Origin: an uncultured Candidatus Saccharibacteria bacterium
GTDB taxonomy: Bacteria > Patescibacteriota > Minisyncoccia > Phycocordibacterales > UBA918
Assembly: GCA_964350645.1 (NCBI GenBank)
Contig: CAYGJY010000001.1
Span: 399,939 to 463,938 of the forward strand
DNA length: 64,000 bases
Reading direction: 5' to 3'
The notes under the pieces were generated by a model. The model saw only the letters and a program-made list of their open reading frames with translations. It ran no database searches and was not told the origin of the DNA. Made by a program: the position numbers and the translations under genes. Shown in pieces: positions 1 through 44,568 of this stretch. Each line of letters begins with the position of its first letter. Within the stretch, counting starts at the first letter, position 1.

Positions 1-1095
1 GTTGCCTGCCTCGTCAAATGCTTCAATAATCACCGTATGATACCCTGGCTCTAGTTCAGGCAAAGCTATCGTACTGCTGCCAGTTTCATCAATATATTCG
101 TACGGCTCATCACCATCAATTTTTACTGTAAAACGCTTTACTTCTGAAGTTTTATCGACAATAGTCAGCTGCAGAATTTGAGACGGATTAGACAAATCAG
201 CCCCTTCTACTAAAGCAATGTCAAATTTTTCAGGTTTACCAGTGTCAACCGCTAAGCGATAGTGTGTAATAGTGCCCCAACCATCTTCATTTTTAAATTG
301 AATGTGAAAATAAGAAATACCTTCATCAAGATCAGAAATTTCGATTTCAGAAATTGGTGTTTCGTACACTTTAGTCGGCACCGAACTTGGGCTACTACTC
401 AAAAGTGTTCGCACCGCAGTTACTCCAGCTGGTAGAGTCCAGTTGAGCGTGGCGGTCGTTTCTCGTGACCAGCCAGCCGGATCAGGGTGAGATTGTGAGG
501 TAATCTTGGGTGCGGAAGGAGTATTGGCAGGCGGAACATATTCAATCACCTCAGGTGCTGCTGGCACTTCTGCAGCAGCGATAGTGAATGCGGCACTCCC
601 CATACTTGAAAGGACATTGGTGCCACGACCATCAGCTGCAAGTGCTGAACCGCTAGAGAAAGACACTTTTGCATTACCAGCACTGACAGCTCGAAACGAT
701 ACATTCATAATGCCACCAGCTGATCCAGTGTAGCCAGCTGGTGAACCCCCACCAAAAGTGATCTTTCCTGAGGCATTAGAGAAGGTCGGTTCAACGGTCC
801 AGAGATTAAAAATTGTACCCTTTGAAATACCGACAACCTGCAATTTCTGGGGGTCATATGTCAAACTACCCTCTGCGGCATTAACAGGTTGACCTGCAGT
901 ATTGAGTCGAACTTGCACTGAAAAGGTACTGCCCACAGTTTGTACACCAGTTTGAGGACTAACTGAAAGTGTTGCAGCATCTGCAACTGACGCAACAAAA
1001 AGTACCAAGCCAGCCGCTAACACGAACAACACTTGGCAGAGTATATATCGACTGTTATTAGATGTACGCACTAAATTATTCTTCATCATACTCAT
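1..1095 (-). CDS. Cohesin-like domain surface protein, N-terminal part only (C-terminus runs off the window start); paralog of 32068..33597
   Basis: Not in the ORF track because it is truncated. Manual reverse-complement translation from ATG at 1095 gives MSMMKNNLVRTSNNSRYILCQVLFVLAAGLVLFVASVADAATLSVSPQTGVQTVGSTFSVQVRLNTAGQPVNAAEGSLTYDPQKLQVVGISKGTIFNLWTVEPTFSNASGKITFGGGSPAGYTGSAGG... The signal peptide and cohesin-like block are collinear with 32068..33597 (SPASGSFTAGQTF...VNAVEAKLSFDPAVLSVV...SLWTTEPAFSNSAGTIEFGGGSP). It overlaps the stop of the upstream gene by about 20 bp. Confidence 0.6.
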   Translation of the reverse strand, partial: MSMMKNNLVRTSNNSRYILCQVLFVLAAGLVLFVASVADAATLSVSPQTGVQTVGSTFSVQVRLNTAGQPVNAAEGSLTYDPQKLQVVGISKGTIFNLWTVEPTFSNASGKITFGGGSPAGYTGSAGGIMNVSFRAVSAGNAKVSFSSGSALAADGRGTNVLSSMGSAAFTIAAAEVPAAPEVIEYVPPANTPSAPKITSQSHPDPAGWSRETTATLNWTLPAGVTAVRTLLSSSPSSVPTKVYETPISEIEISDLDEGISYFHIQFKNEDGWGTITHYRLAVDTGKPEKFDIALVEGADLSNPSQILQLTIVDKTSEVKRFTVKIDGDEPYEYIDETGSSTIALPELEPGYHTVIIEAFDEAGN

Positions 1096-2140
1096 CTATT
1101 AGCTCAACTGCTTCAATTGTGGTACTAGCTCGTTTTCGGATTCGGCGACGGAGGAACCACACGATTAAACCAAGTAACCCAAGTAGCAATACAATCGACA
1201 GAGTTAAGATAGCTGCGAAAGTTATTTGATCAGCCATACTCTTAGTCCGAAGTGATTCGTCTGGTACCAACGTAGCAACGTATTGATTACCGGCTTTATC
1301 GAAAGCACGAACTCGGATAGTACTATTAAGTGACTGATCTTTGAGTAGGTACGGACTACGAGCAGTGATCCACGGTGTATCGGTACCTCCCCAGGCAAAA
1401 AGATTTAATTGTTCCAATGGTTCTTCAATAATTTCATAATGATCAATCCCTGATTGTTTATCAGAAGTATTGAAAACTACGTAGTAGCGGCCAGCATAAA
1501 TTGAGCGATCCGAATTCAAAGAAATTGTAAATGGATTTGGTGGTGCAGTATCATCACTGATTCGCTCCTGCCATTCGTCGTTCACAGAACCAGTTGGGCG
1601 CGTGTTGACAAGAATATTAGCCTCAATGGTGCGTAATTGTGCCGGAGTGCCAGCTCCATCATTTAGAAGCACAGCTGTTTCTGAAGAAAATGCAATTTGA
1701 GCGACTGGATCAACATCCTGTGCTCCAATGCGCAGGCCTGGAGCTTGAAAAATTATCTCGGCGATTGTATTCGTGAGTCGTGGATCACCTTCAATTCTCC
1801 CACAGTAACCATTTGGAATTCCGCCGGCAAACGTTATGCGCTGATTTTTTTTATCGATAACTGGTTCCTCAACCCAGACTGGAAAAATAGATGCTCCGAG
1901 CGAGATATCTACTGGTGAAATGTTTTCCGGGTACGTAATCACACCATCAATAGCATTGATGCATTCACCATCATCTGTATCAATTCTAACTGCTACTGCA
2001 ATGGTATCGCCAGGATCGATTTCTGCCTCGCGTGGATCAAGATACAGCGTGGCAGCTTCAACAGAAGTAGTCAGGGTAACAAAAAATACAAGTAAAATGC
2101 CCGAAATTAGAACTCTCATTGCTTTAAGTATATCAACCAA
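1076..2140 (-). CDS. Secreted cohesin-like domain protein with C-terminal TM anchor and basic stop-transfer tail (RRRIRKR) plus a short acidic cytoplasmic tail
   Basis: 354-aa ORF with an N-terminal signal peptide and LYLDPREAEIDPGDTIAVAVRIDT...INAIDGVITYPENISPVDISLG...ITFAGGIPNGYCG. This has the same β-sandwich pattern as the other cohesin-like genes here. The C-terminus FAAILTLSIVLLLGLLGLIVWFLRRRIRKR is a hydrophobic helix followed by basic residues. Confidence 0.6.
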   Translation of the reverse strand: MVDILKAMRVLISGILLVFFVTLTTSVEAATLYLDPREAEIDPGDTIAVAVRIDTDDGECINAIDGVITYPENISPVDISLGASIFPVWVEEPVIDKKNQRITFAGGIPNGYCGRIEGDPRLTNTIAEIIFQAPGLRIGAQDVDPVAQIAFSSETAVLLNDGAGTPAQLRTIEANILVNTRPTGSVNDEWQERISDDTAPPNPFTISLNSDRSIYAGRYYVVFNTSDKQSGIDHYEIIEEPLEQLNLFAWGGTDTPWITARSPYLLKDQSLNSTIRVRAFDKAGNQYVATLVPDESLRTKSMADQITFAAILTLSIVLLLGLLGLIVWFLRRRIRKRASTTIEAVELIDEYDEE

Positions 2141-2192
2141 TGTGACAAAAAAAATGATCAGCTTGTGTATACAAAATTAATAGAAACGAAAA

Positions 2193-2217
2193 ACCCCTCT
2201 CGTGGTGGGAGATAGGG
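2193..2217 (-). terminator. Imperfect hairpin followed by a T-run on the minus strand, downstream of the 2246..3403 gene
   Basis: aaaCCCCTCTCgtggtgGGAGATAGGGcttt gives one bulged stem. On the minus strand it is followed by GTTTTTCGTTTC. Confidence 0.3.
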
Positions 2218-2245
2218 CTTTCGCGTACTCTAAGCTGTTTGTAAT

Positions 2246-3403
2246 TTAGAACGTAGGCGTTGCTACGTAGGTGAGTGTGGCTTCGTAGTCATCACCAGCT
2301 TCTTGCAAAGCGGTAATTTGTACCTTATAGCCAACATCTGCAACTCCAACTCCGTTTCCAGAGGTAATTCCAGCTGCTGGACCATTGTGGGCCATCACTA
2401 CTCGTGGGCTCGTACTGGCTGCGATCCAGGTATCAGAAGCAAAATCTGCAGTCCGAACACCATTGGTGCTCGTGTCGCTTGATGTTACTCCCCAGTGACC
2501 ATAGGTCTCATCAAAACCAATCGTTGCCGCTGGCGCCGCCCAAGCGCCTGGTGTATCGGTCTCAACTCCATTGTTGAAGAGATCGATATCTGCTCCAGTT
2601 GAAGACAATAACGTATCATCAACTTGTACTGTGACAACATACCCTTGCTTAGCGTTTGTGTTTACTACAAGCCGCTGTGCGGACGTTGTAGCGTTGTCAC
2701 CTCCGGCTAGAAGTGTACCAAACCTAATTTGAGTAGGTGTCGTTGTACCAGTTGTAGTGGTACCGTTAACTGTTTGTCCTCCTCCAAGACCAAGCACTGA
2801 GAATTCGAATTGAGTGTCAATACTAGCGCTGACTAGAACATTTTCTAGAATCATTACTCGTGTTGCACCAATATCTCCTTCTGAAGTAGCAATATTGATC
2901 TCGTAAGAACTGGTTGCTGGGTTAACAATTTGACCGTTCCCCGTTCCACCAAAGGTGGCGTTGGTACCGATTTCAACTGTGACGGTTGTACCCGTTGCAA
3001 TTGTTTCTGTACCACTGGTGAAGACAATGCCAAATGTTGAGGTTGAAACCCCCCAGGTGGCTCCTGACGGTGAATCTGCAAGTGCATAATCAGTCGTCGT
3101 AGCTAAGTCGATATCGCCTGCGTCAATGTTTGACAAGTCGAAATCTGACGTGCCATCTGGGAAAGTAATTGTAATGGTGTCACCATTACTGACTGGTGTC
3201 CCTTCATCTGGGATCGTGAAAGTGATCGTATGATTGGACACCACATCCGGTGCTGAGTCAGAAAGTACATCACTGACTTCAGTTAGACTTGCAGCTTCCG
3301 AAAAACGGAGTGACGGCAAGCCAAGAGACCATAATAGGACTGCAAGGCCAGCAATCGCTGCAACAGCTTGGAGTACTCCGACGGATTTTTCCGATCGAAA
3401 CAT
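2246..3403 (-). CDS. Secreted Thr/Gly-rich surface protein with a WxL-like C-terminal domain (paralog of 43420..44568)
   Basis: 385 aa with a signal peptide and T/G/S-rich repeats. The C-terminal ...ETYGHWGVTSSD...ITALQEAGDDYEATLTYVATPTF is collinear with the paralog ending ...ITALQEAADDYSAILTYIATPTF. The terminal D-Y-x-(A/G)-T-L-T-Y-(V/I)-x-T-P pattern resembles the second WxL/YxL motif of Gram-positive WxL-domain proteins. Confidence 0.55.
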   Translation of the reverse strand: MFRSEKSVGVLQAVAAIAGLAVLLWSLGLPSLRFSEAASLTEVSDVLSDSAPDVVSNHTITFTIPDEGTPVSNGDTITITFPDGTSDFDLSNIDAGDIDLATTTDYALADSPSGATWGVSTSTFGIVFTSGTETIATGTTVTVEIGTNATFGGTGNGQIVNPATSSYEINIATSEGDIGATRVMILENVLVSASIDTQFEFSVLGLGGGQTVNGTTTTGTTTPTQIRFGTLLAGGDNATTSAQRLVVNTNAKQGYVVTVQVDDTLLSSTGADIDLFNNGVETDTPGAWAAPAATIGFDETYGHWGVTSSDTSTNGVRTADFASDTWIAASTSPRVVMAHNGPAAGITSGNGVGVADVGYKVQITALQEAGDDYEATLTYVATPTF

Positions 3404-3683: not shown

Positions 3684-4802
3684 CTAACCAGTCCAGTTGA
3701 AAAGCAAAATTGAGAAGTCTTCAATACCAACATTACCGTTACCGTTGATGTCTGCCGGCGGATTTGAATCACCACCTGGAGTTTGCCACCAAAACAACAA
3801 AATTGAAAAGTCGATCAGATCTACTTCCCCGTCACGATTAAGATCTGACGGGGTTGTGGCTCGCCCTTCTACTCCTACAAACAATGTGAGAGCTGTACTG
3901 AAGCTGCTCTCAGTTGTTAGTGCACCGGTACCCTGGACATACCGAGCTTTAGCAATATACTCCGCTGGACGTAAATCTGACGTCGAATAAGCAATTCCCC
4001 ATGTCCCGTTAGCCGCAGCGTCAAGTCTCGCAGCAACGTCATTGTTGATATACAACTGTACCTGACTGTTAGGGGCAGCCTGACCACTGAAGACAATAGT
4101 ATCACCTGGGTTAATTTCAACATTATCAGCTGCAATTGTTGGTGGCAATAATAACCCTCGCAGATTTGTTACGGCTCCTTGGGTAACATCGAAAGTAGTG
4201 TTGTAGGTGATTGAGCGTACTCCATTAACATCTGTGGACCAAAACCCCATTGTAGCGGCTCCTGGGGACGTCTCAATTGAAAATTCAAACTCTCCTCGAC
4301 TGTTAGCATTCACTCGACCAACCGCTTCTGCATCAAGAATAATATTAACTTGACGATTGGGATACGCGATACCTTCGACACTGATAGATGTGTCGCCAAA
4401 GTCAACGCTACTACCACCTCCACCCCCTGAACCACCTCCCGATGATCCTCCCCCGCCAGACCCAGCTGGTTCAATCGTACAGTCAGCCCCACAAAAATCA
4501 CCATCTTCATTGTTGCCGTCATCACATTGCTCACTAAAAATTGTTTGCAAAATACCATCACCACAATACGGTCCATACGAACAAATTGGAGTGCATTGTC
4601 TACCAACAATAGTTGTACTGTATACACCAGTTTCACCTGGTACATCACATTCTTCTCCAGTCTCTACTAGTGAATTTCCACAGTTAGTCACTTGTAGTGA
4701 CGTAGAAGCTACGCTCATTGTTTGAGCGTTAGAAAAATGACTTGGATGTGCCACACCAAGTAATACCAGTACGACACTGAAAACTAGTACAAACAATTTC
4801 AT
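3684..4802 (-). CDS. Secreted protein: Myxococcus-type Cys-rich repeat, Gly/Ser linker, Ig-like domains, C-terminal type-I dockerin
   Basis: 372 aa with a signal peptide. YCGDGILQTIFSEQCDDGNNEDGDFCGADC matches the CGDG...E.CDDGN...DGC...C repeat. A GGGGSSGGGSGGGGGSS linker follows. The C-terminal DLNRDGEVDLIDFSILLFWW...ADINGNGNVGIEDFSILLFNW is a duplicated Ca-binding dockerin segment. Confidence 0.7.
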   Translation of the reverse strand: MKLFVLVFSVVLVLLGVAHPSHFSNAQTMSVASTSLQVTNCGNSLVETGEECDVPGETGVYSTTIVGRQCTPICSYGPYCGDGILQTIFSEQCDDGNNEDGDFCGADCTIEPAGSGGGGSSGGGSGGGGGSSVDFGDTSISVEGIAYPNRQVNIILDAEAVGRVNANSRGEFEFSIETSPGAATMGFWSTDVNGVRSITYNTTFDVTQGAVTNLRGLLLPPTIAADNVEINPGDTIVFSGQAAPNSQVQLYINNDVAARLDAAANGTWGIAYSTSDLRPAEYIAKARYVQGTGALTTESSFSTALTLFVGVEGRATTPSDLNRDGEVDLIDFSILLFWWQTPGGDSNPPADINGNGNVGIEDFSILLFNWTG

Positions 4803-4805
4803 AGC

Positions 4806-5744
4806 TTATACCTTACGTTTTTTGCGGCGCTGAGAGTAGAGTAATGAGGCTGTGATAAGGAAAATTGTTAGCAATGGCAAGATAATAGAGATCATGTGTG
4901 GTAATGATAAGCCAAGAAGACCATACCCAGCAGTCTGCAGTGTTCCGTACGGGACAATATTTAGAGTTACTTCCCCTTCCTGTTTCAGCTCTTCTTGATT
5001 ATAGATTTCATAACGAGCTAAATAACTCCCCGATGGTAATCTAGTCGGCAGCTCAGAAAGCACATCTTCAGTCCCAAATGGATCGACTTTTTTAATTCTA
5101 TTTGTGTGTTCAGTCTCTTCAAGCAGAATGGTTCCCGTTTGATCATAAATTTTAAAAACCACTTTTGATGGTGCCACTGGTACATTACCGATATTTTCGA
5201 TTAACATCTTGAACCGAATCTTTCCAGGGAAGTATAACCAAGCAAATTTATGTCCTTCATTTAGATCACCAATGTTAATTCGTCGCACACGGAAATCTAA
5301 AATTTCTTTGTCAATAACATTGAGACTAATATCAACCTGTGCCCCAAGCGAAATACTCACAGAACCACTTCCATTTCCATCGTCTGCTGGACCAGTCTTA
5401 ATACGTAGTTTCCCCTTATAGTTTTTGAACTCAGCATCGTCAGGAATTTTAACCCGCACTGTCATTGGCACCTTCTGTTCACCTGCAGGGAGTAAAAAGG
5501 TATCGCCTTCGATAATTTCGATCCAATCTGATACTTCGGGCGCATCTATACTAATCGTTGCCTTAAGAGCCTTATTAGGATCACTACGTACAAGCAAAAT
5601 TTGTTGCTCATAAACTGAGTTTCTCGTTAGGCTAGTATTTTGAAAATATGGCGGCGTTACACCAAAACCTGCGTGTGCCATTGGAGCACTCAAAATCTGC
5701 AGGATGCATACAAAAAATAAAGGTACTAGTAATTTCCTTACCAT
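4806..5744 (-). CDS. Signal-peptide protein with β-sandwich ectodomain and C-terminal TM anchor (RRKKRKV tail); DUF916/CscA-like architecture
   Basis: The ORF-track start is 5882, but the ATG at 5744 gives MVRKLLVPLFFVCILQILSAPMAHA, a clean signal peptide, and avoids overlap with the upstream gene. GFGVTPPYFQNTSLTRNSVYEQQILLVRSDPNK resembles the DUF916 N-terminus. It ends in a TM helix plus a basic tail. Paralog of 42224..43321. Confidence 0.5.
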   Translation of the reverse strand: MVRKLLVPLFFVCILQILSAPMAHAGFGVTPPYFQNTSLTRNSVYEQQILLVRSDPNKALKATISIDAPEVSDWIEIIEGDTFLLPAGEQKVPMTVRVKIPDDAEFKNYKGKLRIKTGPADDGNGSGSVSISLGAQVDISLNVIDKEILDFRVRRINIGDLNEGHKFAWLYFPGKIRFKMLIENIGNVPVAPSKVVFKIYDQTGTILLEETEHTNRIKKVDPFGTEDVLSELPTRLPSGSYLARYEIYNQEELKQEGEVTLNIVPYGTLQTAGYGLLGLSLPHMISIILPLLTIFLITASLLYSQRRKKRKV

Positions 5745-31959: not shown

Positions 31960-32006
31960 GTAGCCCGCCGGTTCATAATATATAACCCGGGGCTATTATA
32001 AATTAT

Positions 32007-32035
32007 AGCGCGCCGGAGGTGATCTCCGGCGCGCT
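32007..32035 (-). terminator. Perfect 12-bp GC-rich hairpin between the 32068..33597 stop and the giant-gene promoter
   Basis: AGCGCGCCGGAG-gtgat-CTCCGGCGCGCT. On the minus strand it is followed by TATAATTTATAATAG, which has a TATAAT -10 about 40 nt upstream of the giant-gene ATG. Confidence 0.6.
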
Positions 32036-32067
32036 AGGTGTGGATTGATTATACCAAAATAACTTTA

Positions 32068-37776: not shown

Positions 37777-37782
37777 ATCCGT

Positions 37783-38664
37783 CTAGTGTAGCAGACCCAG
37801 CGCTGCGATGGATAATACAATAGCGGCTACTTTGCGGGCGTTCCAGTGTTCGTTGTAGAAGATAATTGAAAGCACAATTGGGATGAGGATGTAGAGTGAC
37901 TGGATAGTATAGACAATCCCAAATGGACCATACAAAAATGCAAAAAAGAGAGCCCCTACTCCGCCAGCATTAAACAGACCCATGAACAGAGAGAAACCAA
38001 CAAAGCTAGGGGTGATACTAACTAATACAGAACCATCAAGCTTTGACCTATTTTTATAAATAGTAAGAACTGTGGCGCCAATTGCTGTAGCCAGCGTAGC
38101 TACGGCAGTAAACAACCAAACATTACTTACTGCGTCGACACCAAATTTTGAAATTGCAGCTACTATCAAGGCAACGAGCGAAGCCAGTACTAAGAGTTGC
38201 AGTCCACGAATCAGGTTTTTCTGTCGCGACTGTTCCGCATTTGTGACAAGAAATAGTGGGACCAGGATGCTGATACCAAGTCCAATAACTTCAGTTGTTG
38301 TAAAGCGTTCACCCAACCACAAAATCCCAAATAAAACTGCCAGCAACGGCGTCAATGTTTTGTAGATTGGGTAAAAAATTGCGGTATCAATACACTGCAG
38401 CCCCTTATGCCTAATCATGTTACCAATCAAATATAGTAAACCTGAGGCCAGGGCATATAAAAAAAGTTCGAGTGTAAAACCACTATAATCAGACCAGAAG
38501 AAAGTAGCTACAAACAAGAGCAGTGCCGAGAAATACATCGGCACAGTGTTTACGAGCACAACATCATAATCTCTTTCTACTCCAACTTTTACAAGAAAAA
38601 CAAACAATCCGCCGGAAATAGCGGAGATAATAGTGAGAACAAACCACAATTCCATCCCAAACAT
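37783..38664 (-). CDS. EamA/DMT-superfamily transporter, tandem copy 2
   Basis: 293 aa with MFGMELWF...ILSIIFYNEHWNARKVAAIVLSIAALGLLH. It starts 6 bp after the stop of copy 3. Confidence 0.75.
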   Translation of the reverse strand: MFGMELWFVLTIISAISGGLFVFLVKVGVERDYDVVLVNTVPMYFSALLLFVATFFWSDYSGFTLELFLYALASGLLYLIGNMIRHKGLQCIDTAIFYPIYKTLTPLLAVLFGILWLGERFTTTEVIGLGISILVPLFLVTNAEQSRQKNLIRGLQLLVLASLVALIVAAISKFGVDAVSNVWLFTAVATLATAIGATVLTIYKNRSKLDGSVLVSITPSFVGFSLFMGLFNAGGVGALFFAFLYGPFGIVYTIQSLYILIPIVLSIIFYNEHWNARKVAAIVLSIAALGLLH

Positions 38665-38670
38665 ATTTGC

Positions 38671-39546
38671 TTAGTGTAACAGACCTAACGCCGCGATGGA
38701 TAATATTATGGCTGCTATTTTGCGGGCGTTCCAGTGTTCGTTGTAGAAAATGATGGAGAGGATGATTGGAATGAGGATGTAGAGGGAGTTGATAGTATAA
38801 ACAATGCCAAGTGGGCCGTCGGCAATAGCAAACACCAAGGTCGCAAAGCCAGTTACTTGGAATAAAGACATCCAGGCAATCAGCGTAAGAAACTCTGTGT
38901 TTTTTAATTTTTGTAATCGAACTATCAATGGTTGTTTTGTTTTCTGAATCAGCAAAATTGTCATCCCTGCCACAGCTACACCCAGATCAGTTAAGAAAAT
39001 AAATAACCACGTATTTTCAGTGCCACCAGTGCCATATTTAATACTAATGGTCGCAATCACTGCCAAAAATGCAGCTCCGAGGAGTAATCGAAGACCACGC
39101 ACTAAATCTCTTTGTCTTGATTTTTCAGCTTTAGAAATAAGTAATAATGGAACTAATAAACTTAGCACTAAGCCTATCCATTCAATAGGAGTAAAAGTTT
39201 CAGCAAACAAAAAGATACCAGCAATAATGGTCAAAGCGGGTGTAATCGTTTTATAAATTGGGTAATAAATAGCCGTATCTATACACTGCATAGCATTATG
39301 GCGCAGTATATTTACCCACATGTAACTTACTGAATTGACGATTGCCACCACAAGCATCAGTCGACTAAAACCAGTAAAATCGCTAAATATCAATGTGGCA
39401 AAGAAAAATAATATTGCAGAAGCGGTCAGTGAGGCTGTGCTCATCAAAACTACATCATAATTGCGTTCAGCAGCAATCTTGGTAATAAAAATAAACAAAC
39501 CGCCCAAGATGGCGGAAAGCACGGAAAGTAAAAACCATAATTCCAT
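38671..39546 (-). CDS. EamA/DMT-superfamily transporter, tandem copy 3
   Basis: The ORF-track start is 39627, but the ATG at 39546 gives MELWFLLSV, matching the paralog N-termini and avoiding overlap with the divergent Ham1 gene. It ends ...ILSIIFYNEHWNARKIAAIILSIAALGLLH. Confidence 0.7.
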   Translation of the reverse strand: MELWFLLSVLSAILGGLFIFITKIAAERNYDVVLMSTASLTASAILFFFATLIFSDFTGFSRLMLVVAIVNSVSYMWVNILRHNAMQCIDTAIYYPIYKTITPALTIIAGIFLFAETFTPIEWIGLVLSLLVPLLLISKAEKSRQRDLVRGLRLLLGAAFLAVIATISIKYGTGGTENTWLFIFLTDLGVAVAGMTILLIQKTKQPLIVRLQKLKNTEFLTLIAWMSLFQVTGFATLVFAIADGPLGIVYTINSLYILIPIILSIIFYNEHWNARKIAAIILSIAALGLLH

Positions 39547-39586
39547 AGAAAGAGTATAACTGAAAATTGCTTGATATACTGTAGTT

Positions 39587-40171
39587 ATGAACTGCACGTA
39601 TATCACTGGTAACCCTGAGAAAGCCAAGCGCTTCAGCAGACACCTCGGTATGGAGTTGGCACATCAAGCGCTTGATATCCCTGAGATTCAGTCGCTGTCG
39701 ATTGATGAGGTGGTGGAAGCGAAAGCGCGAAGCGCCTTCGCTTCCCTAGGCTCACCGGTAATTGTTGAGGACACCGCCCTCACCTTCACTGCTCTAGGTC
39801 AGCTCCCTGGCACATTTATTAAGTTCTTTTTAGACTCAATGTCTATCGAGGAAATCACACAGCTAGTCCCAGCAGATAATCGAACTGCCTACTGTGAAGT
39901 AGCTATTGCGTATTACGACGGTGACCGTCTAGAGGTTGCAAAAAGTCATGTTCCTGGAACAATCGCGGAAGCACCCCGAGGAACTGGTGGCTTCGGCTGG
40001 GATGCAATCTTTATTACCGACGAACATCCTCATCAGACCATGGCTGAACTCTCAGAAACTGAGTATGAAACCATATATGCCAAAACGATAAAACCGTTTA
40101 CCGCCCTACGCAAAATATTAGATTCACTGTCTAAAGATCAAATACACAGCGAAAACCAATTGCACCACTAG
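39587..40171 (+). CDS. Non-canonical purine NTP pyrophosphatase (Ham1/RdgB/ITPase family)
   Basis: 194 aa. MNCTYITGNPEKAKRF matches the family start (ATGN.gK). VEDTALTFTALGQLPGTFIKF matches DDSGL.v.ALgG.PG.YSARf. EAPRGTGGFGWDAIFI matches EP.GTGGFGYDPIF. This is the only clear plus-strand gene inside the array, and its 3' end overlaps 40131..40952 by 41 bp. Confidence 0.75.
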   Translation: MNCTYITGNPEKAKRFSRHLGMELAHQALDIPEIQSLSIDEVVEAKARSAFASLGSPVIVEDTALTFTALGQLPGTFIKFFLDSMSIEEITQLVPADNRTAYCEVAIAYYDGDRLEVAKSHVPGTIAEAPRGTGGFGWDAIFITDEHPHQTMAELSETEYETIYAKTIKPFTALRKILDSLSKDQIHSENQLHH

Positions 40172-40952
40172 AAAACGACGGGCTTGTCTTCAAGTGGGCA
40201 CTATATATACCAGCATCTTCCCCACTTCCGTAAAATCCACCGCGCAGTAGGGTGTAATTACCTACTTGGTCAGACCAGAAATAATCATTGTTATAGAGAT
40301 CATTTGGTGTATCACTGGTAGCAGCAGCGATGCCAGTCATATCAGCCTCAGTGACGTAACCTTGCTGAGGCACTGGTCGAGCGTTATATGTGCCTTCAGA
40401 TATTTCTTCATCTACCCATTCCCAGGCATTACCAATCATGTCGTACACCCCTCTAGCTGAGATACACGTTACCCCATTACCAGCTACTTGTAATGAACCA
40501 TTGCCAATGTTGCAGGCGTCTGTATCGGGAGTACCTAGGGCGGCTTCATACCACTCAAGACTTGTCGGCAACCGCATTTCTCTTGCAGCACATAGTTCTT
40601 TAGCTTGATGAAAGGTGACCTGTACCCACGGCAACTGCTTAGGGACTGACTCTGCCCAGCAATCTTCAGACCCAAGATTTAACTTAGTATCCAAAGCAGA
40701 ATTTGGGATTTGCATTGGACAATCTATATATGGACTAACTTCATACTGATCAATACAAAAATATCTTTCACCCAAGCTCACTTCTGCCATTCCTTCTGGA
40801 CAGGTGGCCTTAATACTATTTTGTACTAGACTGCTCAAGGCTGAATTTGAGCCGCGCAGTGCATCAGTCGCATCAATACCAAGACTGGTAAGAACAACGA
40901 TGCCAACAGTCACTAACAAAAAGCGTAGCGAGTTTTTAATAACCTTCCCCAT
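40131..40952 (-). CDS. FGE-sulfatase/C-type-lectin-fold domain protein with N-terminal TM; paralog 2
   Basis: 273 aa with CPEGMAEVSLGERYFCIDQYEVS, GNAWEWVDEE and RGGFYGSGEDAG...GFRCVFDL. Confidence 0.75.
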   Translation of the reverse strand: MGKVIKNSLRFLLVTVGIVVLTSLGIDATDALRGSNSALSSLVQNSIKATCPEGMAEVSLGERYFCIDQYEVSPYIDCPMQIPNSALDTKLNLGSEDCWAESVPKQLPWVQVTFHQAKELCAAREMRLPTSLEWYEAALGTPDTDACNIGNGSLQVAGNGVTCISARGVYDMIGNAWEWVDEEISEGTYNARPVPQQGYVTEADMTGIAAATSDTPNDLYNNDYFWSDQVGNYTLLRGGFYGSGEDAGIYSAHLKTSPSFSSGAIGFRCVFDL

Positions 40953-40983
40953 GTACGTACAGTATAGCTAACCTAAACTCATC

Positions 40984-41793
40984 TTAGATATCTTGTACAC
41001 AGCGGAAACCCACTCCTGCAGTTTTAAAGTTGAGGTCGACAGCGGCGTTTAAGGTAAACAGTCCAGCATCCGCCTGACTACCATAAAAACCACCACGCAG
41101 AATTCCACGAACCCCATTATCACTCGTCCAAGCGTAATCTTCACCATATTCTGCAGCTGGCAAGGGTGCTGTTTCTAACACCACTCCATTTGTATCCACT
41201 AAGGATACATAGCCTGAAGATGGGAGGTCTCGGTTTTCATACTGACCATCAATCACCTGACCGTCTACCCATTCCCAGACATTGCCTACCATGTCGTGAA
41301 TACCTGAAGGTGTTTCACATTCGCTAGCACCGGTTAATTGCACATCATCTTCGGTGAGACCTATCGCACACTGACTGACATCACTCATACCTAGCACTGC
41401 TTTATACCATTCTTCGTTACTTGGTAATCGTTTACCTGACCGTGCGCACAGTTGTTGTGCCTGTGTAACACTGACAAAGCGCCACGGTGTCACTCCAGCC
41501 GCAGACTGCGACGTACACGTTACATCAGTGAGATTTCTCAGTGTATCGATTTCATTCTGTGGGTCATTCACAACGCAACTCGGCGCTGGACTTGCTTCAT
41601 ACGTATCTACACATAAAGCGTGATCACCAAGCTGTAAGATCACTGCCGAATCACCACAAATGCCGCCACTTTGATTCACTAAACCGACTAAATTTCCATC
41701 AAGCCCCCGCAACACATCACTTGCGTTTATTGCTAACGTAGAAAATCCAATTGCTCCTACTACAACGAGAACCGATTTAAGCCGGCGATTCAT
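40984..41793 (-). CDS. FGE-sulfatase/C-type-lectin-fold domain protein with N-terminal TM; paralog 3
   Basis: 269 aa with ALCVDTYEASP, GNVWEWVDGQ and RGGFYGSQADAG...GFRCVQDI. Confidence 0.75.
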   Translation of the reverse strand: MNRRLKSVLVVVGAIGFSTLAINASDVLRGLDGNLVGLVNQSGGICGDSAVILQLGDHALCVDTYEASPAPSCVVNDPQNEIDTLRNLTDVTCTSQSAAGVTPWRFVSVTQAQQLCARSGKRLPSNEEWYKAVLGMSDVSQCAIGLTEDDVQLTGASECETPSGIHDMVGNVWEWVDGQVIDGQYENRDLPSSGYVSLVDTNGVVLETAPLPAAEYGEDYAWTSDNGVRGILRGGFYGSQADAGLFTLNAAVDLNFKTAGVGFRCVQDI

Positions 41794-42205
41794 CTTGGGG
41801 TAGATATGTTAAACGTCGATAGCGAGCAAAATCAAGTGCGTAATTGAGCACCAACATCACTACTATGATAAACAACACGAGACTCAAAATATATGTAGAA
41901 AGCTCATTTGATTGACCTCCAACTTCGCCACCACCAAGACCAACGTTCATCTCACGACTCGATAGCGCGGCTTCTCTGGCATCAAGATCACGCTGACGCT
42001 CTGTGAGCTGGGCGGTAAGGGTATTAAGTTCAGTTGGTGCTACTTGGGCCCCAACCCCAACCACGTTCGCCACATACAGTTGTGTCCCCTGCGAGAGCTG
42101 CTTGGTTAAAGGTGAAAGAAGACCACTGTCAAACAAGAGTACCAGAGCCAGAGTCAGAGCCGATATTCGCAAAAGCATATGATACGTAGTGTATTGCATC
42201 ATCAT
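41777..42205 (-). CDS. Small membrane protein with central coiled-coil (hypothetical)
   Basis: 142 aa with N- and C-terminal hydrophobic helices and an LTAQLTERQRDLDAREAALSSRE segment. It overlaps the downstream FGE gene start by 17 bp. Confidence 0.5.
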   Translation of the reverse strand: MMMQYTTYHMLLRISALTLALVLLFDSGLLSPLTKQLSQGTQLYVANVVGVGAQVAPTELNTLTAQLTERQRDLDAREAALSSREMNVGLGGGEVGGQSNELSTYILSLVLFIIVVMLVLNYALDFARYRRLTYLPQDESPA

Positions 42206-42223
42206 ACTTCTATACTATCAAGC

Positions 42224-43321
42224 TTATGCAAACAGAGCGAGTAAAATAATCAAGAACACTGCCGTAACTCCAAGCATCACTACCATCACGAGGAGTAATG
42301 TTGATGTACCGCCTGGTCGTTGTCGTTTTCTTTGAACTAACCGACGTCCGCCCGACATGGTTGCAACTGTTCGCCTGACATACATCCTGATCATGACATA
42401 GGTTGCTAACAACAGTATTCCGAGGATAATCAGTGCCGGGGTAATAATATTCATTGGCAAAATCCAAAATGATACAGTGCTTGAGATAGTAGCTTGACGA
42501 CCCGGCACGCCATAAACCATAGATAACACTGCCTCATAGCGACCAAATCCAAGACCGTCATCCTTCCAGGAAATTGAAAAATCTCGCTTGGTGAACGGGA
42601 ACACGCCGCCCTGTGAATCATTAATACTCAAATTAGCCACTCGCTCACCAAACATATTATAGATTTCTATCGGACCATACGGTCTGATCAAGACATTTCC
42701 TTTGTTTTCTACTTCAGCCATAAAATCTACGTTGGTACTACCGTAGATGAATTTATCAGTCCTAAATGAACGTATAATCGCAGATTCTTGAACTTCACCT
42801 GAAATCCGAATGCTGACAATGTTTGCTACTTCATACCCAACACTGGCACCAATCTGTCGTAGTTTAGGTGGCTGCATCGAAACAAAAATCCCTCCAAAGT
42901 GACTCCCTGGTGTAGCCGACTCGGGTACATTGATAGTAACTGGAATCGTCTGTTGCTCTTGTGGTTCGAGCGTTACTTCAGACAATGCAATATCAAGCCA
43001 TTCTGTTAATTCAAAACCAGTTTTTTCCTTGCCTGGCTCTGCATAGACTGGTGTACCACCGTCACGCACGGTTACAATGTCACGTTTGAATAGATAATAA
43101 GTTTGTACCTCAGTACTTAAGTTTGTGAGAGTTATCGAACGTTCTAAGACATCACCCGGATCAGCCCCTTCTTCTATCAATGACGGCTGCAATCCAATAC
43201 CTGATGTTGCCTGTGCATTAACTACAGTTGGTAATAAAAACAAAAAAAGTGCACAGCACAGTACAAGACGTTGTAAAAATGTCATAACAAAAATTACTGG
43301 TTTACCAAATTGTACCATCAT
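42224..43321 (-). CDS. Signal-peptide β-sandwich protein with C-terminal TM anchor(s); DUF916/CscA-like, paralog of 4806..5744
   Basis: 365 aa; the likely true start is the internal MTFLQRLVLCCALFLFLLPTVVNAQA. ERSITLTNLSTEVQTYYLF resembles the DUF916 core L.v.L.N.s.......v. The C-terminus has a TM, an RRLVQRKRQR stretch, then a second TM. Confidence 0.5.
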   Translation of the reverse strand: MMVQFGKPVIFVMTFLQRLVLCCALFLFLLPTVVNAQATSGIGLQPSLIEEGADPGDVLERSITLTNLSTEVQTYYLFKRDIVTVRDGGTPVYAEPGKEKTGFELTEWLDIALSEVTLEPQEQQTIPVTINVPESATPGSHFGGIFVSMQPPKLRQIGASVGYEVANIVSIRISGEVQESAIIRSFRTDKFIYGSTNVDFMAEVENKGNVLIRPYGPIEIYNMFGERVANLSINDSQGGVFPFTKRDFSISWKDDGLGFGRYEAVLSMVYGVPGRQATISSTVSFWILPMNIITPALIILGILLLATYVMIRMYVRRTVATMSGGRRLVQRKRQRPGGTSTLLLVMVVMLGVTAVFLIILLALFA

Positions 43322-43374
43322 TCAAAACCATCAAAACAAACTGATGTACATAAGCGTAAATACACTAACACAAC

Positions 43375-43400
43375 AAAAAAATCCCTTTCGGGATTTTTTT
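43375..43400 (-). terminator. Rho-independent terminator hairpin downstream of 43420..44568
   Basis: AAAAAAATCCC-tttc-GGGATTTTTTT is a perfect 11-bp stem with A/T tracts on both sides. It is near-identical to the hairpin at 49717..49740. Confidence 0.7.
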
Positions 43401-43419
43401 GCAACTTTCAAGTGGTTAT

Positions 43420-44568
43420 CTAGAAGGTTGGAGTTGCGATGTATGTAAGGATCGCACTGTAGTCATCAGCCGCTTCCTGCAGCGCAGTAATCTCAATCTG
43501 GAAACCAACAGTTGTTGATCCAATTCCAGGTGTTGACGCATCCGCTACACTAGTGTGACTAAAGAGAACAGCTGGTGAAGTACTAGCTCCTTCCCATTCG
43601 TTTGCGCCGAATTCGGCAGCAGCTCCACGGGTGGTGTCAGTATCTTCAGTAGTCCAACCCCAGTGACCCCAAGTGTTTTCATCAGAGATACTTGGTGTAC
43701 CGTCTCCTGGAGCTTCCCAGGCTTTTGGATTAAGGAAAGCACCATCATCAAAGGCGTCAATATCGGCACCTGTTGACGAAAGAAGTTGTTGATCAACCTC
43801 AGCAGTGACTACGAAGCCACGAATAGCGTTGGTAGCAACAGTGAGTTCTTGAGCTAGTGTTTCAATTTCACCGTTAGCCAAGAGACCGAACGGTAAACTT
43901 GTAGCTGTAGTTGTACCAGTTGTTGACGTACCGTTTACCGCAATCCCCGCAGTGGCAAACCCACTCACTGTAAACTCAAAGTTAGTGTTAACTTGAGCTG
44001 TGACGTAGACTGAATCAACGATAGCTACTTCAGTAGTACCACCATCAACACCGTTAAAATCGATATCGATTTCATACGAGCCTTGCGTACCCGGGTTAAC
44101 AATTCTATTAAGGTCGTCTCCAGTACCAAACGCTGTAGCGTTGCTACCGATTTCGATAGTGACAGTTGCATTTGGTGCAATCGTGTCAGTCCCAGATTCG
44201 ATAATGATGTCTTGGCCAACAATAGTTACTCCCCAGACTGCAGCTGCAGCAGCTGCAGCTGTGTCTTCGTCGACGCCATTAACTGCAAAGTCAATGTCGT
44301 CTTCGGTAACACTGCTAAGGTCAAATCCAACTTGGAAAGTGACAGTGGCAGTACCACCAGCAACCATTCCGGTTGGTGTGACAAATTGAATGGTGTGGTT
44401 TGATGCGGTACTCGTAGCAGAAGTTTCAAGCAAGTCCTGAAAATTTGTCAGGTTGGCAGCTTGAGCACTGTGTACGTGTGCACCGTATCCCCACAACACA
44501 AGAGCTAATGAAACGAGGGTCGCGATCACTCGAAACATAGCATTATCTTGTTTTGATAATACGAACAT
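43420..44568 (-). CDS. Secreted Thr/Gly-rich surface protein with a WxL-like C-terminal domain (paralog of 2246..3403)
   Basis: 382 aa, probably starting at the second Met (MFRVIATLVSLALVLW). It has a poly-Ala run (DTAAAAAAAVWG). The C-terminus ...ENTWGHWGWTTED...ITALQEAADDYSAILTYIATPTF is collinear with 2246..3403. Confidence 0.55.
   Translation of the reverse strand: MFVLSKQDNAMFRVIATLVSLALVLWGYGAHVHSAQAANLTNFQDLLETSATSTASNHTIQFVTPTGMVAGGTATVTFQVGFDLSSVTEDDIDFAVNGVDEDTAAAAAAAVWGVTIVGQDIIIESGTDTIAPNATVTIEIGSNATAFGTGDDLNRIVNPGTQGSYEIDIDFNGVDGGTTEVAIVDSVYVTAQVNTNFEFTVSGFATAGIAVNGTSTTGTTTATSLPFGLLANGEIETLAQELTVATNAIRGFVVTAEVDQQLLSSTGADIDAFDDGAFLNPKAWEAPGDGTPSISDENTWGHWGWTTEDTDTTRGAAAEFGANEWEGASTSPAVLFSHTSVADASTPGIGSTTVGFQIEITALQEAADDYSAILTYIATPTF

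What the first reader, a model, noticed from the sequence alone, without database searches (positions are those of the whole stretch)
1..44568. 44-kb same-strand surface-complex array with duplicated cohesin / dockerin / WxL-like / DUF916-like modules flanking a giant adhesin gene
Every gene from 1 to 44568 except one (Ham1) is on the minus strand, and almost all encode secreted or anchored proteins. On the low-coordinate side the order is cohesin-like (1..1095), cohesin-like + TM (1076..2140), WxL-like (2246..3403), dockerin (3684..4802), DUF916-like (4806..5744), Cys-rich type-II protein, FtsX permease, ABC ATPase, FN3 protein and the 6,658-aa giant protein. On the other side are cohesin-like (32068..33597), Hsp20, dockerin (34145..36049), FGE-fold paralogs, DMT transporters, DUF916-like (42224..43321) and WxL-like (43420..44568). 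The paralog sets are collinear at protein level but diverged, so this looks like an old segmental duplication around the giant gene. A cohesin-dockerin scaffold combined with a WxL/DUF916 (Csc-type) wall-association module and a giant LamG/DUF2341 protein is not a described combination. There are no glycoside hydrolases, so it is not a cellulosome; an attachment or cell-cell adhesion complex is more likely.
Basis: partly seen in the sequence, partly recalled or inferred. Interest (0 to 1): 0.85.

Follow-up and report, generated by a model that had tools for sequence, protein, structure and literature searches.

The report
Conserved surface-protein supercluster of an ultra-small bacterium
This is a real 45-kb gene cluster, conserved among ultra-small Patescibacteria (CPR bacteria), that combines two kinds of non-covalent cell-surface anchoring pairs around a 6,658-residue secreted protein, and it is a strong, so far undescribed candidate for how these cells decorate their surface and attach to hosts.

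Summary
From 1 to 44568 every real gene except Ham1 is on the minus strand, and nearly all products carry a signal peptide or membrane anchor. Pfam hits above the curated cut-offs confirm two cohesins, two C-terminal dockerins, one DUF916 (WxLIP) protein, a MacB-type ABC pair, FN3, Hsp20, three FGE-fold proteins and DUF2341/LamG in the giant. The third cohesin-like and the second DUF916-like protein are confirmed by profile-profile comparison (97.9-99.9%).

The two 'WxL-like' proteins hit no WxL model. They belong to a large unannotated family (2,522 clusters at 50% identity). It resembles WxL only weakly by sequence (hhalign P about 0.01) but matches it in context, in C-terminal position and in motif blocks. 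Its C-terminal domain folds like donor-strand-exchange fibre subunits.

The full layout recurs on one contig of a second genome, and each half recurs in several more Patescibacteria assemblies. The paralog sets are therefore old. Gene order, however, differs between the two halves, and the second WxL-like gene is a recent addition.

Most likely function: non-covalent display of adhesive proteins on membrane-anchored cohesin and WxLIP scaffolds, together with the giant protein. This is a new variant of known kinds. Binding and adhesion are inferred, not shown.

The parts
1..1095 (-). Cohesin protein 3: signal peptide + cohesin + Ig-like region. The C-terminus is cut by the window edge. Orthologues are 548-626 aa, with a TM helix and a cytoplasmic coiled-coil tail in the orthologues inspected.
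   Evidence: Pfam Cohesin E 8e-12, 45.9 bits; orthologues in L005-L011; hhalign 100% to the 32068 group
1076..2140 (-). Cohesin-like protein 2 with signal peptide and C-terminal TM anchor
   Evidence: No Pfam hit. BLASTP 36%/163 aa, E 8e-17 to 2-1095. hhalign 99.8-99.9% to both Pfam-positive cohesin groups. TM at 301-334.
2246..3403 (-). WxL-like protein 2 (two beta-sandwich domains); a lineage-specific extra copy
   Evidence: 46% identical to 43420-44568; found only in the window and L005
3684..4802 (-). Dockerin protein 2: signal peptide, Cys-rich DUF4215/myxo_disulf repeat, Gly-rich linker, Ig-like domains, C-terminal dockerin
   Evidence: Dockerin_1 24.3 bits; TIGR02232 E 1e-11; duplicated DxNxDGxVxxxDF loops conserved in 13 orthologues
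4806..5744 (-). WxLIP-like protein 2: signal peptide, two Ig-like domains, C-terminal TM + basic tail
   Evidence: hhalign 97.9%, E 5.5e-13, 291 columns against 7 bona fide DUF916/DUF3324 proteins; TM at 321-351
5857..7719 (-). N-terminally membrane-anchored Cys-rich protein whose C-terminal half is homologous to the C-terminus of the giant protein
   Evidence: BLASTP 32%/243 aa, E 5e-13 to giant residues 6433-6639; alignment A3 with invariant NNCY, ADPTD and WGI.IP motifs; no Pfam, NCBIfam or PDB hit
7797..9005 (-). MacB-type (type VII) ABC permease
   Evidence: MacB_PCD E 3e-16 + FtsX E 4e-15
9008..10330 (-). ABC ATPase with an extra C-terminal region of about 220 aa
   Evidence: ABC_tran E 6e-32 at residues 26-174 of 440
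10467..11978 (-). Secreted multi-FN3 protein
   Evidence: fn3 E 1e-24, 3 stretches
11983..31959 (-). Giant secreted protein, 6,658 aa, acidic (pI about 4), non-repetitive; DUF2341 x3, Laminin_G_3, Ig_Rha78A_N
   Evidence: No internal BLASTP repeats at E<=1e-5. Orthologues of 5,607-7,042 aa at the same position.
32006..32036 (-). Strong terminator-like hairpin (13-bp stem, 10 GC pairs) between cohesin gene 1 and the giant gene
32068..33597 (-). Cohesin protein 1: signal peptide, cohesin, Ig-like domains, TM helix, cytoplasmic coiled-coil tail
   Evidence: Cohesin 25.8 bits; TM at 401-431; orthologues 61-68% identical
33614..34081 (-). Hsp20 small heat-shock protein; always sits between the dockerin and cohesin genes
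   Evidence: HSP20 E 2e-10; 83-88% identical orthologues, among the highest identities of the locus's genes
34145..36049 (-). Dockerin protein 1: signal peptide, N-domain shared with the WxL-like family, Gly/Ser linker, Ig-like domains, C-terminal dockerin
   Evidence: Dockerin_1 31.7 bits; the family N-domain HMM hits its orthologues at E 1e-13 to 2e-17; alignment
36055..36855 (-). Membrane-anchored FGE-fold protein (paralog 3)
   Evidence: FGE-sulfatase E 3e-12
36901..39627 (-). Three tandem EamA/DMT transporters: a lineage-specific insertion, not part of the conserved cluster
   Evidence: EamA hits; absent at this position from L002-L004 and L021; 3' ends 78-84% identical in DNA
39587..40171 (+). 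Ham1/ITPase, the only plus-strand gene; part of the same insertion
   Evidence: Ham1p_like E 4e-33
40131..41793 (-). Two membrane-anchored FGE-fold proteins (paralogs 1 and 2), conserved in the cluster
   Evidence: FGE-sulfatase E 1e-14 and 3e-11; weak PDB matches to EgtB and SUMF2; synteny
41777..42205 (-). Small conserved protein with an N-terminal and a C-terminal hydrophobic segment
   Evidence: Orthologues 50-57% identical in L002-L004; TM scan
42224..43321 (-). WxLIP-like protein 1: signal peptide, DUF916 + second Ig domain, TM
   Evidence: WxLIP_PGBD 29 bits. tblastn to annotated DUF916 proteins, E 5e-7. hhalign 99.6%, E 1e-23. Its profile hits solved EfmWxLIP1 9i1y at E 5e-5.
43420..44568 (-). 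WxL-like protein 1: signal peptide, BslA/MSCRAMM-like N-domain, pilin-like C-domain ending in ...DDYSAILTYIATPTF
44867..44910 (.). 20-bp-stem hairpin at the end of umuC; marks the upstream border of the cluster

Best explanation
The window comes from a Patescibacteria (CPR) genome related to Paceibacterota/Kaiserbacteria assemblies. Positions 1-44568 are a conserved cell-surface assembly locus. It encodes two old paralogous anchoring modules on either side of a 6,658-aa secreted LamG/DUF2341 protein.

Each module contains two anchoring pairs:
(i) Type-I membrane proteins that expose a cohesin, together with a secreted Ig-rich protein ending in a canonical two-loop, Ca-binding dockerin.
(ii) A WxLIP-type protein (signal peptide, two Ig domains, C-terminal TM helix). 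In module 1 and in this lineage's module 2 it is joined by a secreted two-domain 'WxL-like' protein.

Proposed mechanism (inferred, not shown):
- The membrane-anchored cohesins capture the dockerin tails.
- The WxLIP-like proteins hold the pilin-like C-domain of the WxL-like proteins by beta-strand complementation, as predicted for bona fide WxLIP/WxL.
- Secreted adhesive modules are thereby displayed non-covalently on a monoderm envelope.
- The same N-terminal 'head' domain occurs on both a WxL-like tail and a dockerin tail, so one head is displayed through two anchoring routes.
- The giant protein is the long-reach adhesin. Its C-terminal domain is shared with a membrane-anchored neighbour (5857-7719), which may tether it.
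- The adjacent MacB-type ABC machine would supply mechanical work at the membrane.

The overall role is most likely attachment to host cells or surfaces.
For: Shown here:
- Domain identities above Pfam cut-offs.
- All three cohesin groups are homologous (hhalign 99.8-100%).
- Both WxLIP-like groups match bona fide DUF916/DUF3324/TM proteins over about 290-300 columns (99.6% and 97.9%). The module-1 profile hits the solved E. faecium WxLIP1 as the only significant PDB match (E 5e-5).
- There are exactly two dockerins in the window, with duplicated DxNxDGxVxxxDF loops conserved in 13 orthologues.
- Cohesin and WxLIP-like proteins have C-terminal TM helices, and their partners have only signal peptides.
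- The N-domain is shared between the WxL-like family and dockerin protein 1 (E 1e-13 to 2e-17).
- Adjacency is conserved. WxL-like/WxLIP-like/small TM/FGE/dockerin/Hsp20/cohesin/giant occurs in L002, L003, L004 and L021. Module 2 recurs, in whole or in part, in L005-L013: L005 shows the full series from the giant's 3' end to the cohesins, L010 and L011 have FN3/ABC/FtsX/5857/WxLIP2/dockerin2/cohesins, and the other loci are cut by contig ends, with L007 rearranged. Both halves lie on one contig of GCA_964552045.1.
- In 'large' family members the unit sits at the extreme C-terminus behind LVIVD, LamG, CarboxypepD_reg or Flg_new passenger domains, as in large WxL proteins. One database protein fuses a WxLIP-like part to it.

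From the literature:
- WxLIP binds and stabilises WxL, with a predicted strand insertion (PMC10599100).
- A dockerin-domain envelope protein is essential in the Saccharibacterium Southlakia epibionticum. That genome also has a DUF916/WxL/LPXTG cluster next to FN3/RCC1 proteins and an ABC transporter (PMC10633639, main text and Table S2).
Against: - No binding was tested or modelled; no multimer prediction was available.
- WxL membership of the 'WxL-like' family is unproven. There is no Pfam WxL hit in 65 members and no HMM hit to bona fide WxL. hhalign gives only P 0.012-0.015, and 3 of 100 shuffles do as well.
- In six related loci WxLIP-like 2 has no adjacent WxL-like gene, so its partner there is unknown.
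- The WxL-like family is much better conserved (50-75% identity over more than 100 sequences) than is usual for host-specific adhesins. That fits a structural role at least as well.
- Roles for Hsp20, the FGE-fold proteins and the ABC machine are guesses.
- No expression data or host information are available.
Confidence: 0.6

Rival explanations
1. Fibre or pilus system. The WxL-like proteins polymerise, or are capped, by donor-strand exchange into surface fibrils. The two-Ig WxLIP-like proteins act as membrane-anchored PapD-like chaperones or bases. The cohesin/dockerin proteins and the giant protein are accessories.
- The family is very large and well conserved.
- A conserved N-terminal segment follows the signal peptide.
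- Published WxLIP models show two perpendicular Ig domains and a strand predicted to insert into WxL (PMC10599100).
Against: - The C-domain folds as a complete, confident domain on its own.
- No usher, SipW-type peptidase or other known assembly factor is present in the locus.
- The protein has a second globular N-domain that is also used on a dockerin protein. That fits a displayed module better than a fibre subunit.
Confidence: 0.2
2. Structural envelope layer. The locus builds a constitutive, S-layer-like or wall-associated protein coat needed for envelope integrity, not primarily for adhesion.
For: - The WxL-like, Hsp20 and cohesin proteins are highly conserved across genomes.
- All secreted parts are acidic, pI about 4.
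- Every component is membrane-anchored.
- The cluster sits next to an ECF sigma/anti-sigma-like pair and wall-related genes such as PG_binding_1, CAP and GH18.
Against: - LamG, DUF2341, FN3 and Ig-rich modules and a 6,658-aa protein are typical of adhesins.
- The giant protein diverges fast (35-50% identity).
- 'Large' family members carry variable passenger domains.
- No S-layer-type model hit passes its cut-off. The only such hit, NF033506, scores 16.8 bits against a cut-off of 110.
Confidence: 0.15
3. Cellulosome-like enzyme complex for polysaccharide breakdown.
For: Cohesins and dockerins are present. A GH18 gene lies 2 kb outside the array.
Against: - Only two dockerins exist in the window, both on Ig-rich non-enzymatic proteins.
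- GH18 has no dockerin.
- There is no CBM-bearing scaffoldin and no multi-cohesin protein.
Confidence: 0.03

Closest known systems
Csc / WxL gene clusters of Lactobacillales, Listeria and Bacillus (CscA = WxLIP with DUF916+DUF3324+TM; CscB/C = WxL proteins; CscD = LPXTG protein)
   Same: - The WxLIP-type protein has the same architecture and demonstrable homology.
- It is encoded next to a secreted protein whose conserved unit is C-terminal.
- 'Small' and 'large' versions exist with variable N-terminal passenger domains.
- The C-terminal motif AGDDYxxTLTYIATPTF resembles AGTYKSVFTYTATSGI of a Pfam-positive Paenibacillus WxL.
   Different: - No WxL HMM hit. The W-x-L tripeptides are replaced (GFVV and TYIA).
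- There is one WxL-like gene per WxLIP rather than two or more.
- No LPXTG partner is present.
- An extra N-domain is present.
- The host is a Patescibacterium.
- The cluster is coupled to cohesin-dockerin genes and a giant gene.
Non-cellulosomal cohesin-dockerin pairs and cellulosome anchoring scaffoldins
   Same: Canonical cohesin fold hits and a duplicated F-hand dockerin at the C-terminus of secreted proteins. Cohesin genes lie next to dockerin genes.
   Different: - Each protein has a single cohesin, anchored by its own TM helix with a conserved cytoplasmic coiled-coil tail, rather than by SLH or sortase.
- The cargo is Ig-like or Cys-rich modules, not enzymes.
Envelope proteins of the cultivated Saccharibacterium Southlakia epibionticum (PMC10633639)
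   Same: - Same phylum.
- A dockerin-domain envelope protein is essential in Tn-seq.
- A DUF916/WxL/LPXTG cluster lies next to FN3/RCC1 proteins and an ABC transporter, listed only in a supplementary table.
   Different: - The two features are at separate loci there.
- No cohesin is reported.
- That WxL protein is a 188-aa canonical-looking one found by Foldseek.
- Sequence homology to the window proteins could not be tested.
Donor-strand-exchange fibres (TLP-1a/b from pond water, archaic Csu pili, TasA, archaeal bundling pili)
   Different: No sequence similarity, no assembly machinery in the locus, and no evidence of polymerisation.
Giant DUF2341/FhaB-type proteins of Patescibacteria (PMC11809585)
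   Same: A protein of more than 4,000 aa with DUF2341, proposed to act in adhesion.
   Different: Here the giant gene has a fixed, conserved neighbourhood and orthologues of 5.6-7.0 kaa in several genomes. That paper stressed the lack of full-length homologues.

Membership tests
Cohesin (PF00963) | Match to the family model above the curated cut-off | tested here: met
   2-1095: 45.9 bits; 32068-33597: 25.8 bits (GA 24.1). 1076-2140 has no Pfam hit but reaches hhalign 99.8-99.9% to both.
Dockerin type I (PF00404) | Model match, plus two tandem Ca-binding loops each followed by a helix | tested here: met
   24.3 and 31.7 bits (GA 22.9). DLNRDGxVxLIDFSILLF ... DINGxGxVxxxDFSILLFNW is conserved in 13 orthologues.
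Cohesin-dockerin system | Physical, Ca-dependent binding of the dockerin to a cohesin of the same organism | not testable with these tools
   No multimer prediction or experiment is available. Only conserved adjacency is shown.
Cellulosome | Dockerin-bearing glycoside hydrolases and a multi-cohesin, CBM-bearing scaffoldin | tested here: not met
   There are two dockerins only, both on non-enzymatic proteins. Each protein has one cohesin. GH18 outside the array has no dockerin.
WxLIP (DUF916 + DUF3324 + TM helix) | DUF916/PGBD domain | tested here: met
   42224-43321: 29.0 bits (GA 27.3); tblastn E 5e-7 to annotated DUF916 proteins; profile hits solved EfmWxLIP1 at E 5e-5. 4806-5744: hhalign 97.9%.
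WxLIP (DUF916 + DUF3324 + TM helix) | Second Ig-like domain (DUF3324/HBD) followed by a single C-terminal TM helix | tested here: met
   There is no Pfam DUF3324 hit. However, hhalign to full-length bona fide proteins covers 291-300 columns, including the second domain and the TM/basic tail. TM segments.
WxL domain (PF13731) | Match to the WxL model | tested here: not met
   No hit in the two window proteins or in 65 family members at E<=1. The family HMM does not find bona fide WxL. Actinobacterial proteins, some of which a source names WxL, also have no PF13731 hit on record, so the model is not exhaustive.
WxL domain (PF13731) | Two Trp-x-Leu motifs on the last and an earlier strand of a C-terminal domain | tested here: inconclusive
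   The positions aligned by hhalign carry G-F-V-V and T-Y-I-A instead of W-x-L. The flanking blocks (FG; V.T[DN]...G[WF].[LV].V; AG.Y...[LF]T[WY]) are similar. hhalign P 0.012-0.015; 3 of 100 shuffles reach that score. The unit is C-terminal in 10 of the 11 long members that carry it.
WxL/Csc gene cluster as defined in PMC10599100 | [quoted passage not shown] | tested here: not met
   Each WxLIP-like gene has one WxL-like neighbour in the window and none in six related module-2 loci. No LPXTG protein is present in the array.
Donor-strand-exchange pilins / TLP-1-type fibres | Pilin-like Ig fold | tested here: met
Donor-strand-exchange pilins / TLP-1-type fibres | Polymerisation through an N-terminal donor strand, plus a dedicated assembly factor | not testable with these tools
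   No usher or SipW-like gene was seen. Oligomer modelling was not available.
MacB-type (type VII) ABC transporter | FtsX permease with a MacB periplasmic core domain, plus a separate ABC ATPase | tested here: met
   MacB_PCD, FtsX and ABC_tran hits
Formylglycine-generating enzyme | FGE-sulfatase fold | tested here: met
   Three paralogs at 44-55 bits (GA 23.3); weak matches to EgtB and SUMF2
Formylglycine-generating enzyme | Catalytic cysteine pair upstream of the C-terminal GFRC motif (motif recalled from knowledge of FGE) | tested here: not met
   In all three paralogs the last 50 or more residues before GFRC contain no Cys (sequences). They are probably non-catalytic FGE-fold proteins.

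The most novel reading that the evidence does not exclude
The WxLIP-like / WxL-like pairs are a monoderm counterpart of chaperone-subunit systems. In this reading a membrane-anchored, PapD-like two-Ig protein donates or exchanges a strand with a pilin-fold subunit from a 2,500-cluster unannotated family. That interaction builds strand-complemented anchors or TLP-1-like fibrils on CPR cells. Together with TM-anchored cohesins, dockerin-tagged heads and the giant protein, they would form a dedicated host-attachment organelle of Paceibacteria-type bacteria.
Probability: 0.2. Interest if true: 0.85.

Novelty: new variant of a known kind. Interest (0 to 1): 0.62.

Why it matters
How ultra-small CPR/Patescibacteria bacteria attach to hosts is largely unknown beyond type IV pili. 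This locus gives a concrete, conserved parts list that can be tested:
- three membrane-anchored cohesins and two dockerin proteins;
- two WxLIP-type anchors;
- a very large unannotated secreted family with a pilin-like C-domain;
- a giant LamG/DUF2341 protein with a fixed neighbourhood.

It shows that two non-covalent surface-anchoring principles known from Firmicutes (cohesin-dockerin and WxLIP/WxL) occur together in CPR. It also shows that one head domain is displayed through both routes. The WxL-like family is a family-annotation gap: 2,522 clusters at 50% identity with no Pfam, NCBIfam or PDB sequence match.

Tried and rejected
- **Sequence searches on the WxL-like proteins.** Pfam, NCBIfam and PDB sequence searches gave nothing.
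- **Pfam scan of 65 divergent family members at E<=1.** No WxL hit.
- **Family HMMs against bona fide WxL proteins.** No hit.
- **Larger WxL profile.** Enlarging it to 122 sequences did not improve hhalign: P 0.015, C-terminal 71 columns only.
- **AlphaFold-database fold libraries.** Not available, so the decisive comparison with predicted WxL structures could not be run.
- **WxL chains in the PDB.** None could be found by sequence.
- **Whole-protein fold searches.** They gave only generic Ig-like, MSCRAMM or pilin matches.
- **The 5857-7719 family.** No Pfam, NCBIfam or PDB sequence match.
- **Internal repeats in the giant protein.** None at E<=1e-5.
- **Non-coding RNA.** No Rfam families or tRNAs in the window.
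- **Promoter scan.** No more matches than in shuffles.
- **Organism name.** Exact look-up gave no name for the source contig.
- **Cellulosome reading.** Rejected, because no dockerin-tagged enzymes are present.
- **Recent DNA-level segmental duplication.** Rejected. The paralogs are only 22-46% identical as proteins, and each has its own orthologues.

Full report
**1. Observation**

The ORF map reproduces the coordinates given. From 1 to 44568 the long ORFs are all on the minus strand except Ham1 (39587-40171, Ham1p_like E 4e-33). The other plus-strand ORFs lie inside minus-strand genes. The strand bias itself is unremarkable: most genes in the rest of the window are also on the minus strand, and GC skew is negative throughout. 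Hydrophobicity scans and inspection of the translations show a signal peptide or membrane anchor in almost every product. The exceptions are the ABC ATPase, Hsp20 and Ham1.

**2. Components**

- Cohesin in 2-1095 (45.9 bits) and 32068-33597 (25.8 bits).
- Dockerin_1 at the extreme C-terminus of 3684-4802 (24.3 bits) and 34145-36049 (31.7 bits).
- WxLIP_PGBD (DUF916) in 42224-43321 (29.0 bits).
- MacB_PCD+FtsX (7797-9005), ABC_tran (9008-10330) and fn3 x3 (10467-11978).
- HSP20, three FGE-sulfatase proteins and three EamA transporters.
- In the 6,658-aa protein: DUF2341 x3, Laminin_G_3 and Ig_Rha78A_N.

Three labels had no Pfam hit and were tested with profiles built from orthologues:
- The cohesin-like 1076-2140 group gives hhalign 99.8-99.9% to both Pfam-positive cohesin groups.
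- The DUF916-like 4806-5744 group gives 97.9% (E 5.5e-13, 291 columns) to seven bona fide DUF916/DUF3324/TM proteins taken from annotated plasmids.
- The 42224 group gives 99.6% (E 1e-23, 300 columns) to the same set. Its profile finds the solved E. faecium WxLIP1 (9i1y/9i25) as the only significant PDB hit (E 5e-5).

A dockerin HMM built from 13 orthologues finds exactly two dockerins in the six-frame translation of the window. Both have the duplicated DxNxDGxVxxxDF loops.

The cohesin proteins are type-I membrane proteins. Cohesin groups A and C carry a conserved cytoplasmic coiled-coil tail with a KEIxDVE motif.

**3. Paralogy and history**

| Pair | BLASTP result |
|---|---|
| cohesin | 40%, E 5e-65 |
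| dockerin proteins | 41% over the C-terminal 246 aa |
| WxL-like | 46%, E 3e-80 |
| WxLIP-like | 22%, E 4e-5 (hhalign 96%) |

Each copy has its own orthologues elsewhere, at about 31-88% identity depending on the gene and locus. The duplications therefore predate the divergence of these genomes.

A single collinear segmental duplication is nevertheless not what the data show:
- Gene order differs between the halves.
- WxL-like 2 is found only in the window and its closest relative L005, not in L008-L013.
- The EamA x3 + Ham1 block is an insertion specific to this genome.

**4. Source organism and conservation**

Homologues of the WxL-like protein carry names such as Candidatus Paceibacterota, Candidatus Kaiserbacteria and Patescibacteria group.

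- Module 1 runs umuC | WxL-like, WxLIP-like, small TM protein, 1-3 FGE-fold proteins, dockerin protein, Hsp20, cohesin-TM, giant of 5,607-7,042 aa. It recurs in L002, L003 (GCA_020632155.1), L004 and L021.
- Module 2 runs giant 3' end, FN3, ABC, FtsX, 5857-like, WxLIP-like 2, dockerin 2, cohesin-TM 2, cohesin 3. It recurs, in whole or in part, in L005-L013: L005 has the full series, L010 and L011 start at FN3, the other loci are cut by contig ends, and L007 is rearranged.
- L005 and L021 lie on the same contig with consistent coordinates, so the whole layout exists in a second genome.
- A strong hairpin (32036-32006) separates cohesin gene 1 from the giant gene. Another (44867-44910) closes umuC.

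**5. The 'WxL-like' family**

It has no Pfam, NCBIfam or PDB sequence match. It is nevertheless very large: more than 1,517 close homologues and 2,522 clusters at 50% identity with E<=1e-3.

AlphaFold2 gives a confident two-domain beta structure (pLDDT 88).
- The N-domain has generic BslA/YweA, MSCRAMM or Gram-positive-pilin neighbours. It is shared with dockerin protein 1 (HMM E 1e-13 to 2e-17).
- Among the lower C-domain matches are CsuA/B, a Pyrobaculum bundling pilin, CS17/CS20, CupE, Fim/Pap pilins, Caf1 and TasA.

Tests against bona fide WxL proteins:
- Reference proteins were a Paenibacillus protein with PF13731 on record (P0271) and plasmid proteins annotated as WxL (Bacillus) or lying next to DUF916 genes (Clavibacter, Arthrobacter).
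- HMM searches fail, and 65 family members show no Pfam WxL hit.
- hhalign gives a collinear 143-column alignment at P 0.012. Three of 100 block-shuffled controls reach that score, and the reversed control scores 13.8 against 22.4.
- A 122-sequence WxL profile gives P 0.015 over the last 71 columns only.
- The aligned blocks are FG, V.TNA..GFVVTV versus V.D.RG...GW.L.V, and AGDDY..TLTYIATPTF versus AGTYKSVFTYTATSGI.

Contextual evidence is stronger:
- A WxLIP-like gene is adjacent in both modules of the window and in L002, L003, L004, L021 and L005.
- The unit is C-terminal in 10 of the 11 long family members that carry it.
- Variable N-terminal passenger domains occur (LVIVD, LamG, CarboxypepD_reg, Flg_new).
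- One database protein fuses a WxLIP-like part to the unit.

Actinobacterial proteins recovered by the WxL profile, some of which a source names WxL, also have no PF13731 hit on record, so the negative Pfam result is not decisive. I treat WxL membership as unproven and the functional analogy as likely.

**6. Mechanism (inferred)**

- Membrane-anchored cohesins capture the dockerin tails.
- Membrane-anchored WxLIP-like proteins hold the pilin-like C-domain of WxL-like proteins, probably by strand complementation as predicted for WxLIP/WxL (PMC10599100).
- The same head domain is thereby displayed by two routes.
- The giant protein is secreted, acidic and non-repetitive, and carries LamG/DUF2341. 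It shares its C-terminal domain of about 300 aa with the N-terminally anchored protein 5857-7719. This suggests a tether.
- The neighbouring MacB-type ABC pair could supply mechanical work.
- The FGE-fold proteins lack the catalytic cysteine pair (by inspection; motif recalled from knowledge). They are probably structural or binding modules.
- Only the domain identities, topologies, paralogy and synteny are shown. Binding and adhesion are inference.

**7. Rivals**

- A donor-strand fibre system, supported by the fold of the C-domain.
- A constitutive envelope layer, supported by the high conservation of the WxL-like family.
- A cellulosome, rejected because there are no dockerin-tagged enzymes.

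**8. Relation to known systems and novelty**

The pieces are known kinds: Csc/WxL clusters (PMC1534035, PMC9772566, PMC10599100), non-cellulosomal cohesin-dockerin pairs, MacB-type ABC machines and giant DUF2341 proteins of Patescibacteria (PMC11809585).

Within the phylum, a dockerin-domain envelope protein is essential in Southlakia epibionticum. A DUF916/WxL/LPXTG cluster is also listed there, in a supplementary table (PMC10633639).

I found no paper describing their combination, the TM-anchored single-cohesin proteins, the shared head domain, or the WxL-like family. Verdict: new variant of known kinds, with moderately high interest.

Noticed in passing
window 36901-40171: Three tandem EamA/DMT transporter genes plus a plus-strand Ham1 gene are inserted inside module 1 in this genome only. 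The 3' 154 nt of the three EamA genes are 78-84% identical in DNA, although the proteins are only 40-51% identical overall. This suggests partial homogenisation by gene conversion.
   Followed up: partly
window 44905-48374: The umuD (47937-48374) and umuC (44905-46155) genes are separated here by a GH18 gene and an opposite-strand NUDIX gene (46071-46679). In L003 umuD and umuC are adjacent. The umuDC pair sits immediately upstream of the surface cluster in all five genomes examined.
   Followed up: partly
window 48434-55596: Conserved synteny continues upstream of the finding: CAP-domain protein, a 1,418-aa Ig-rich protein ending in PG_binding_1, a three-TM protein (possible anti-sigma factor) and an ECF sigma factor. 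Relatives (L002, L003, L021) have a sortase next to the large Ig protein; this window does not. The surface island may therefore be longer than 44.5 kb and under ECF-sigma control.
   Followed up: partly
window 33614-34081: The Hsp20 gene wedged between the dockerin and cohesin genes has among the highest identities to its orthologues of the locus's genes (83-88% identity against about 50-68% for its neighbours). It keeps this position in every genome examined. Its relation to the surface proteins is unexplained.
   Followed up: no
window 32068-32400 and orthologues of 1-1095 (L005 16866-18626, L007 3181-4944): The cytoplasmic tails of the TM-anchored cohesin proteins are coiled-coil-like and share a conserved ...(V/I)EKEIxDV(E/K)... 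motif. This hints at an intracellular partner.
   Followed up: no
P0126, P0224 (database relatives of 43420-44568): P0126 (3,077 aa) carries ten tandem copies of the family's N-domain and no C-domain. P0224 (666 aa) is a fusion of a WxLIP-like part (residues 16-306) with a complete WxL-like unit. It could be a true fusion or a gene-calling artefact.
   Followed up: partly
window 63610-63966 (-): A small ORF lies in a locally GC-richer stretch (GC 0.51 against about 0.44). It ends in LPAAG, a hydrophobic segment and KRK, which looks like a sortase-type sorting signal. It has no Pfam hit.
   Followed up: no
window 60756-61298 (-): A small secreted leucine-rich-repeat protein (LRR_4/LRR_8) lies next to two secreted proteins without Pfam hits (58294-59523, 59788-60384). 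These are further candidate surface or interaction proteins outside the finding.
   Followed up: no
L008-L013 (module 2 in more distant genomes): WxLIP-like 2 is conserved between the 5857-like gene and dockerin protein 2 even where no WxL-like gene is nearby. Its binding partner in those genomes is unknown; it may be one of those two neighbours.
   Followed up: no
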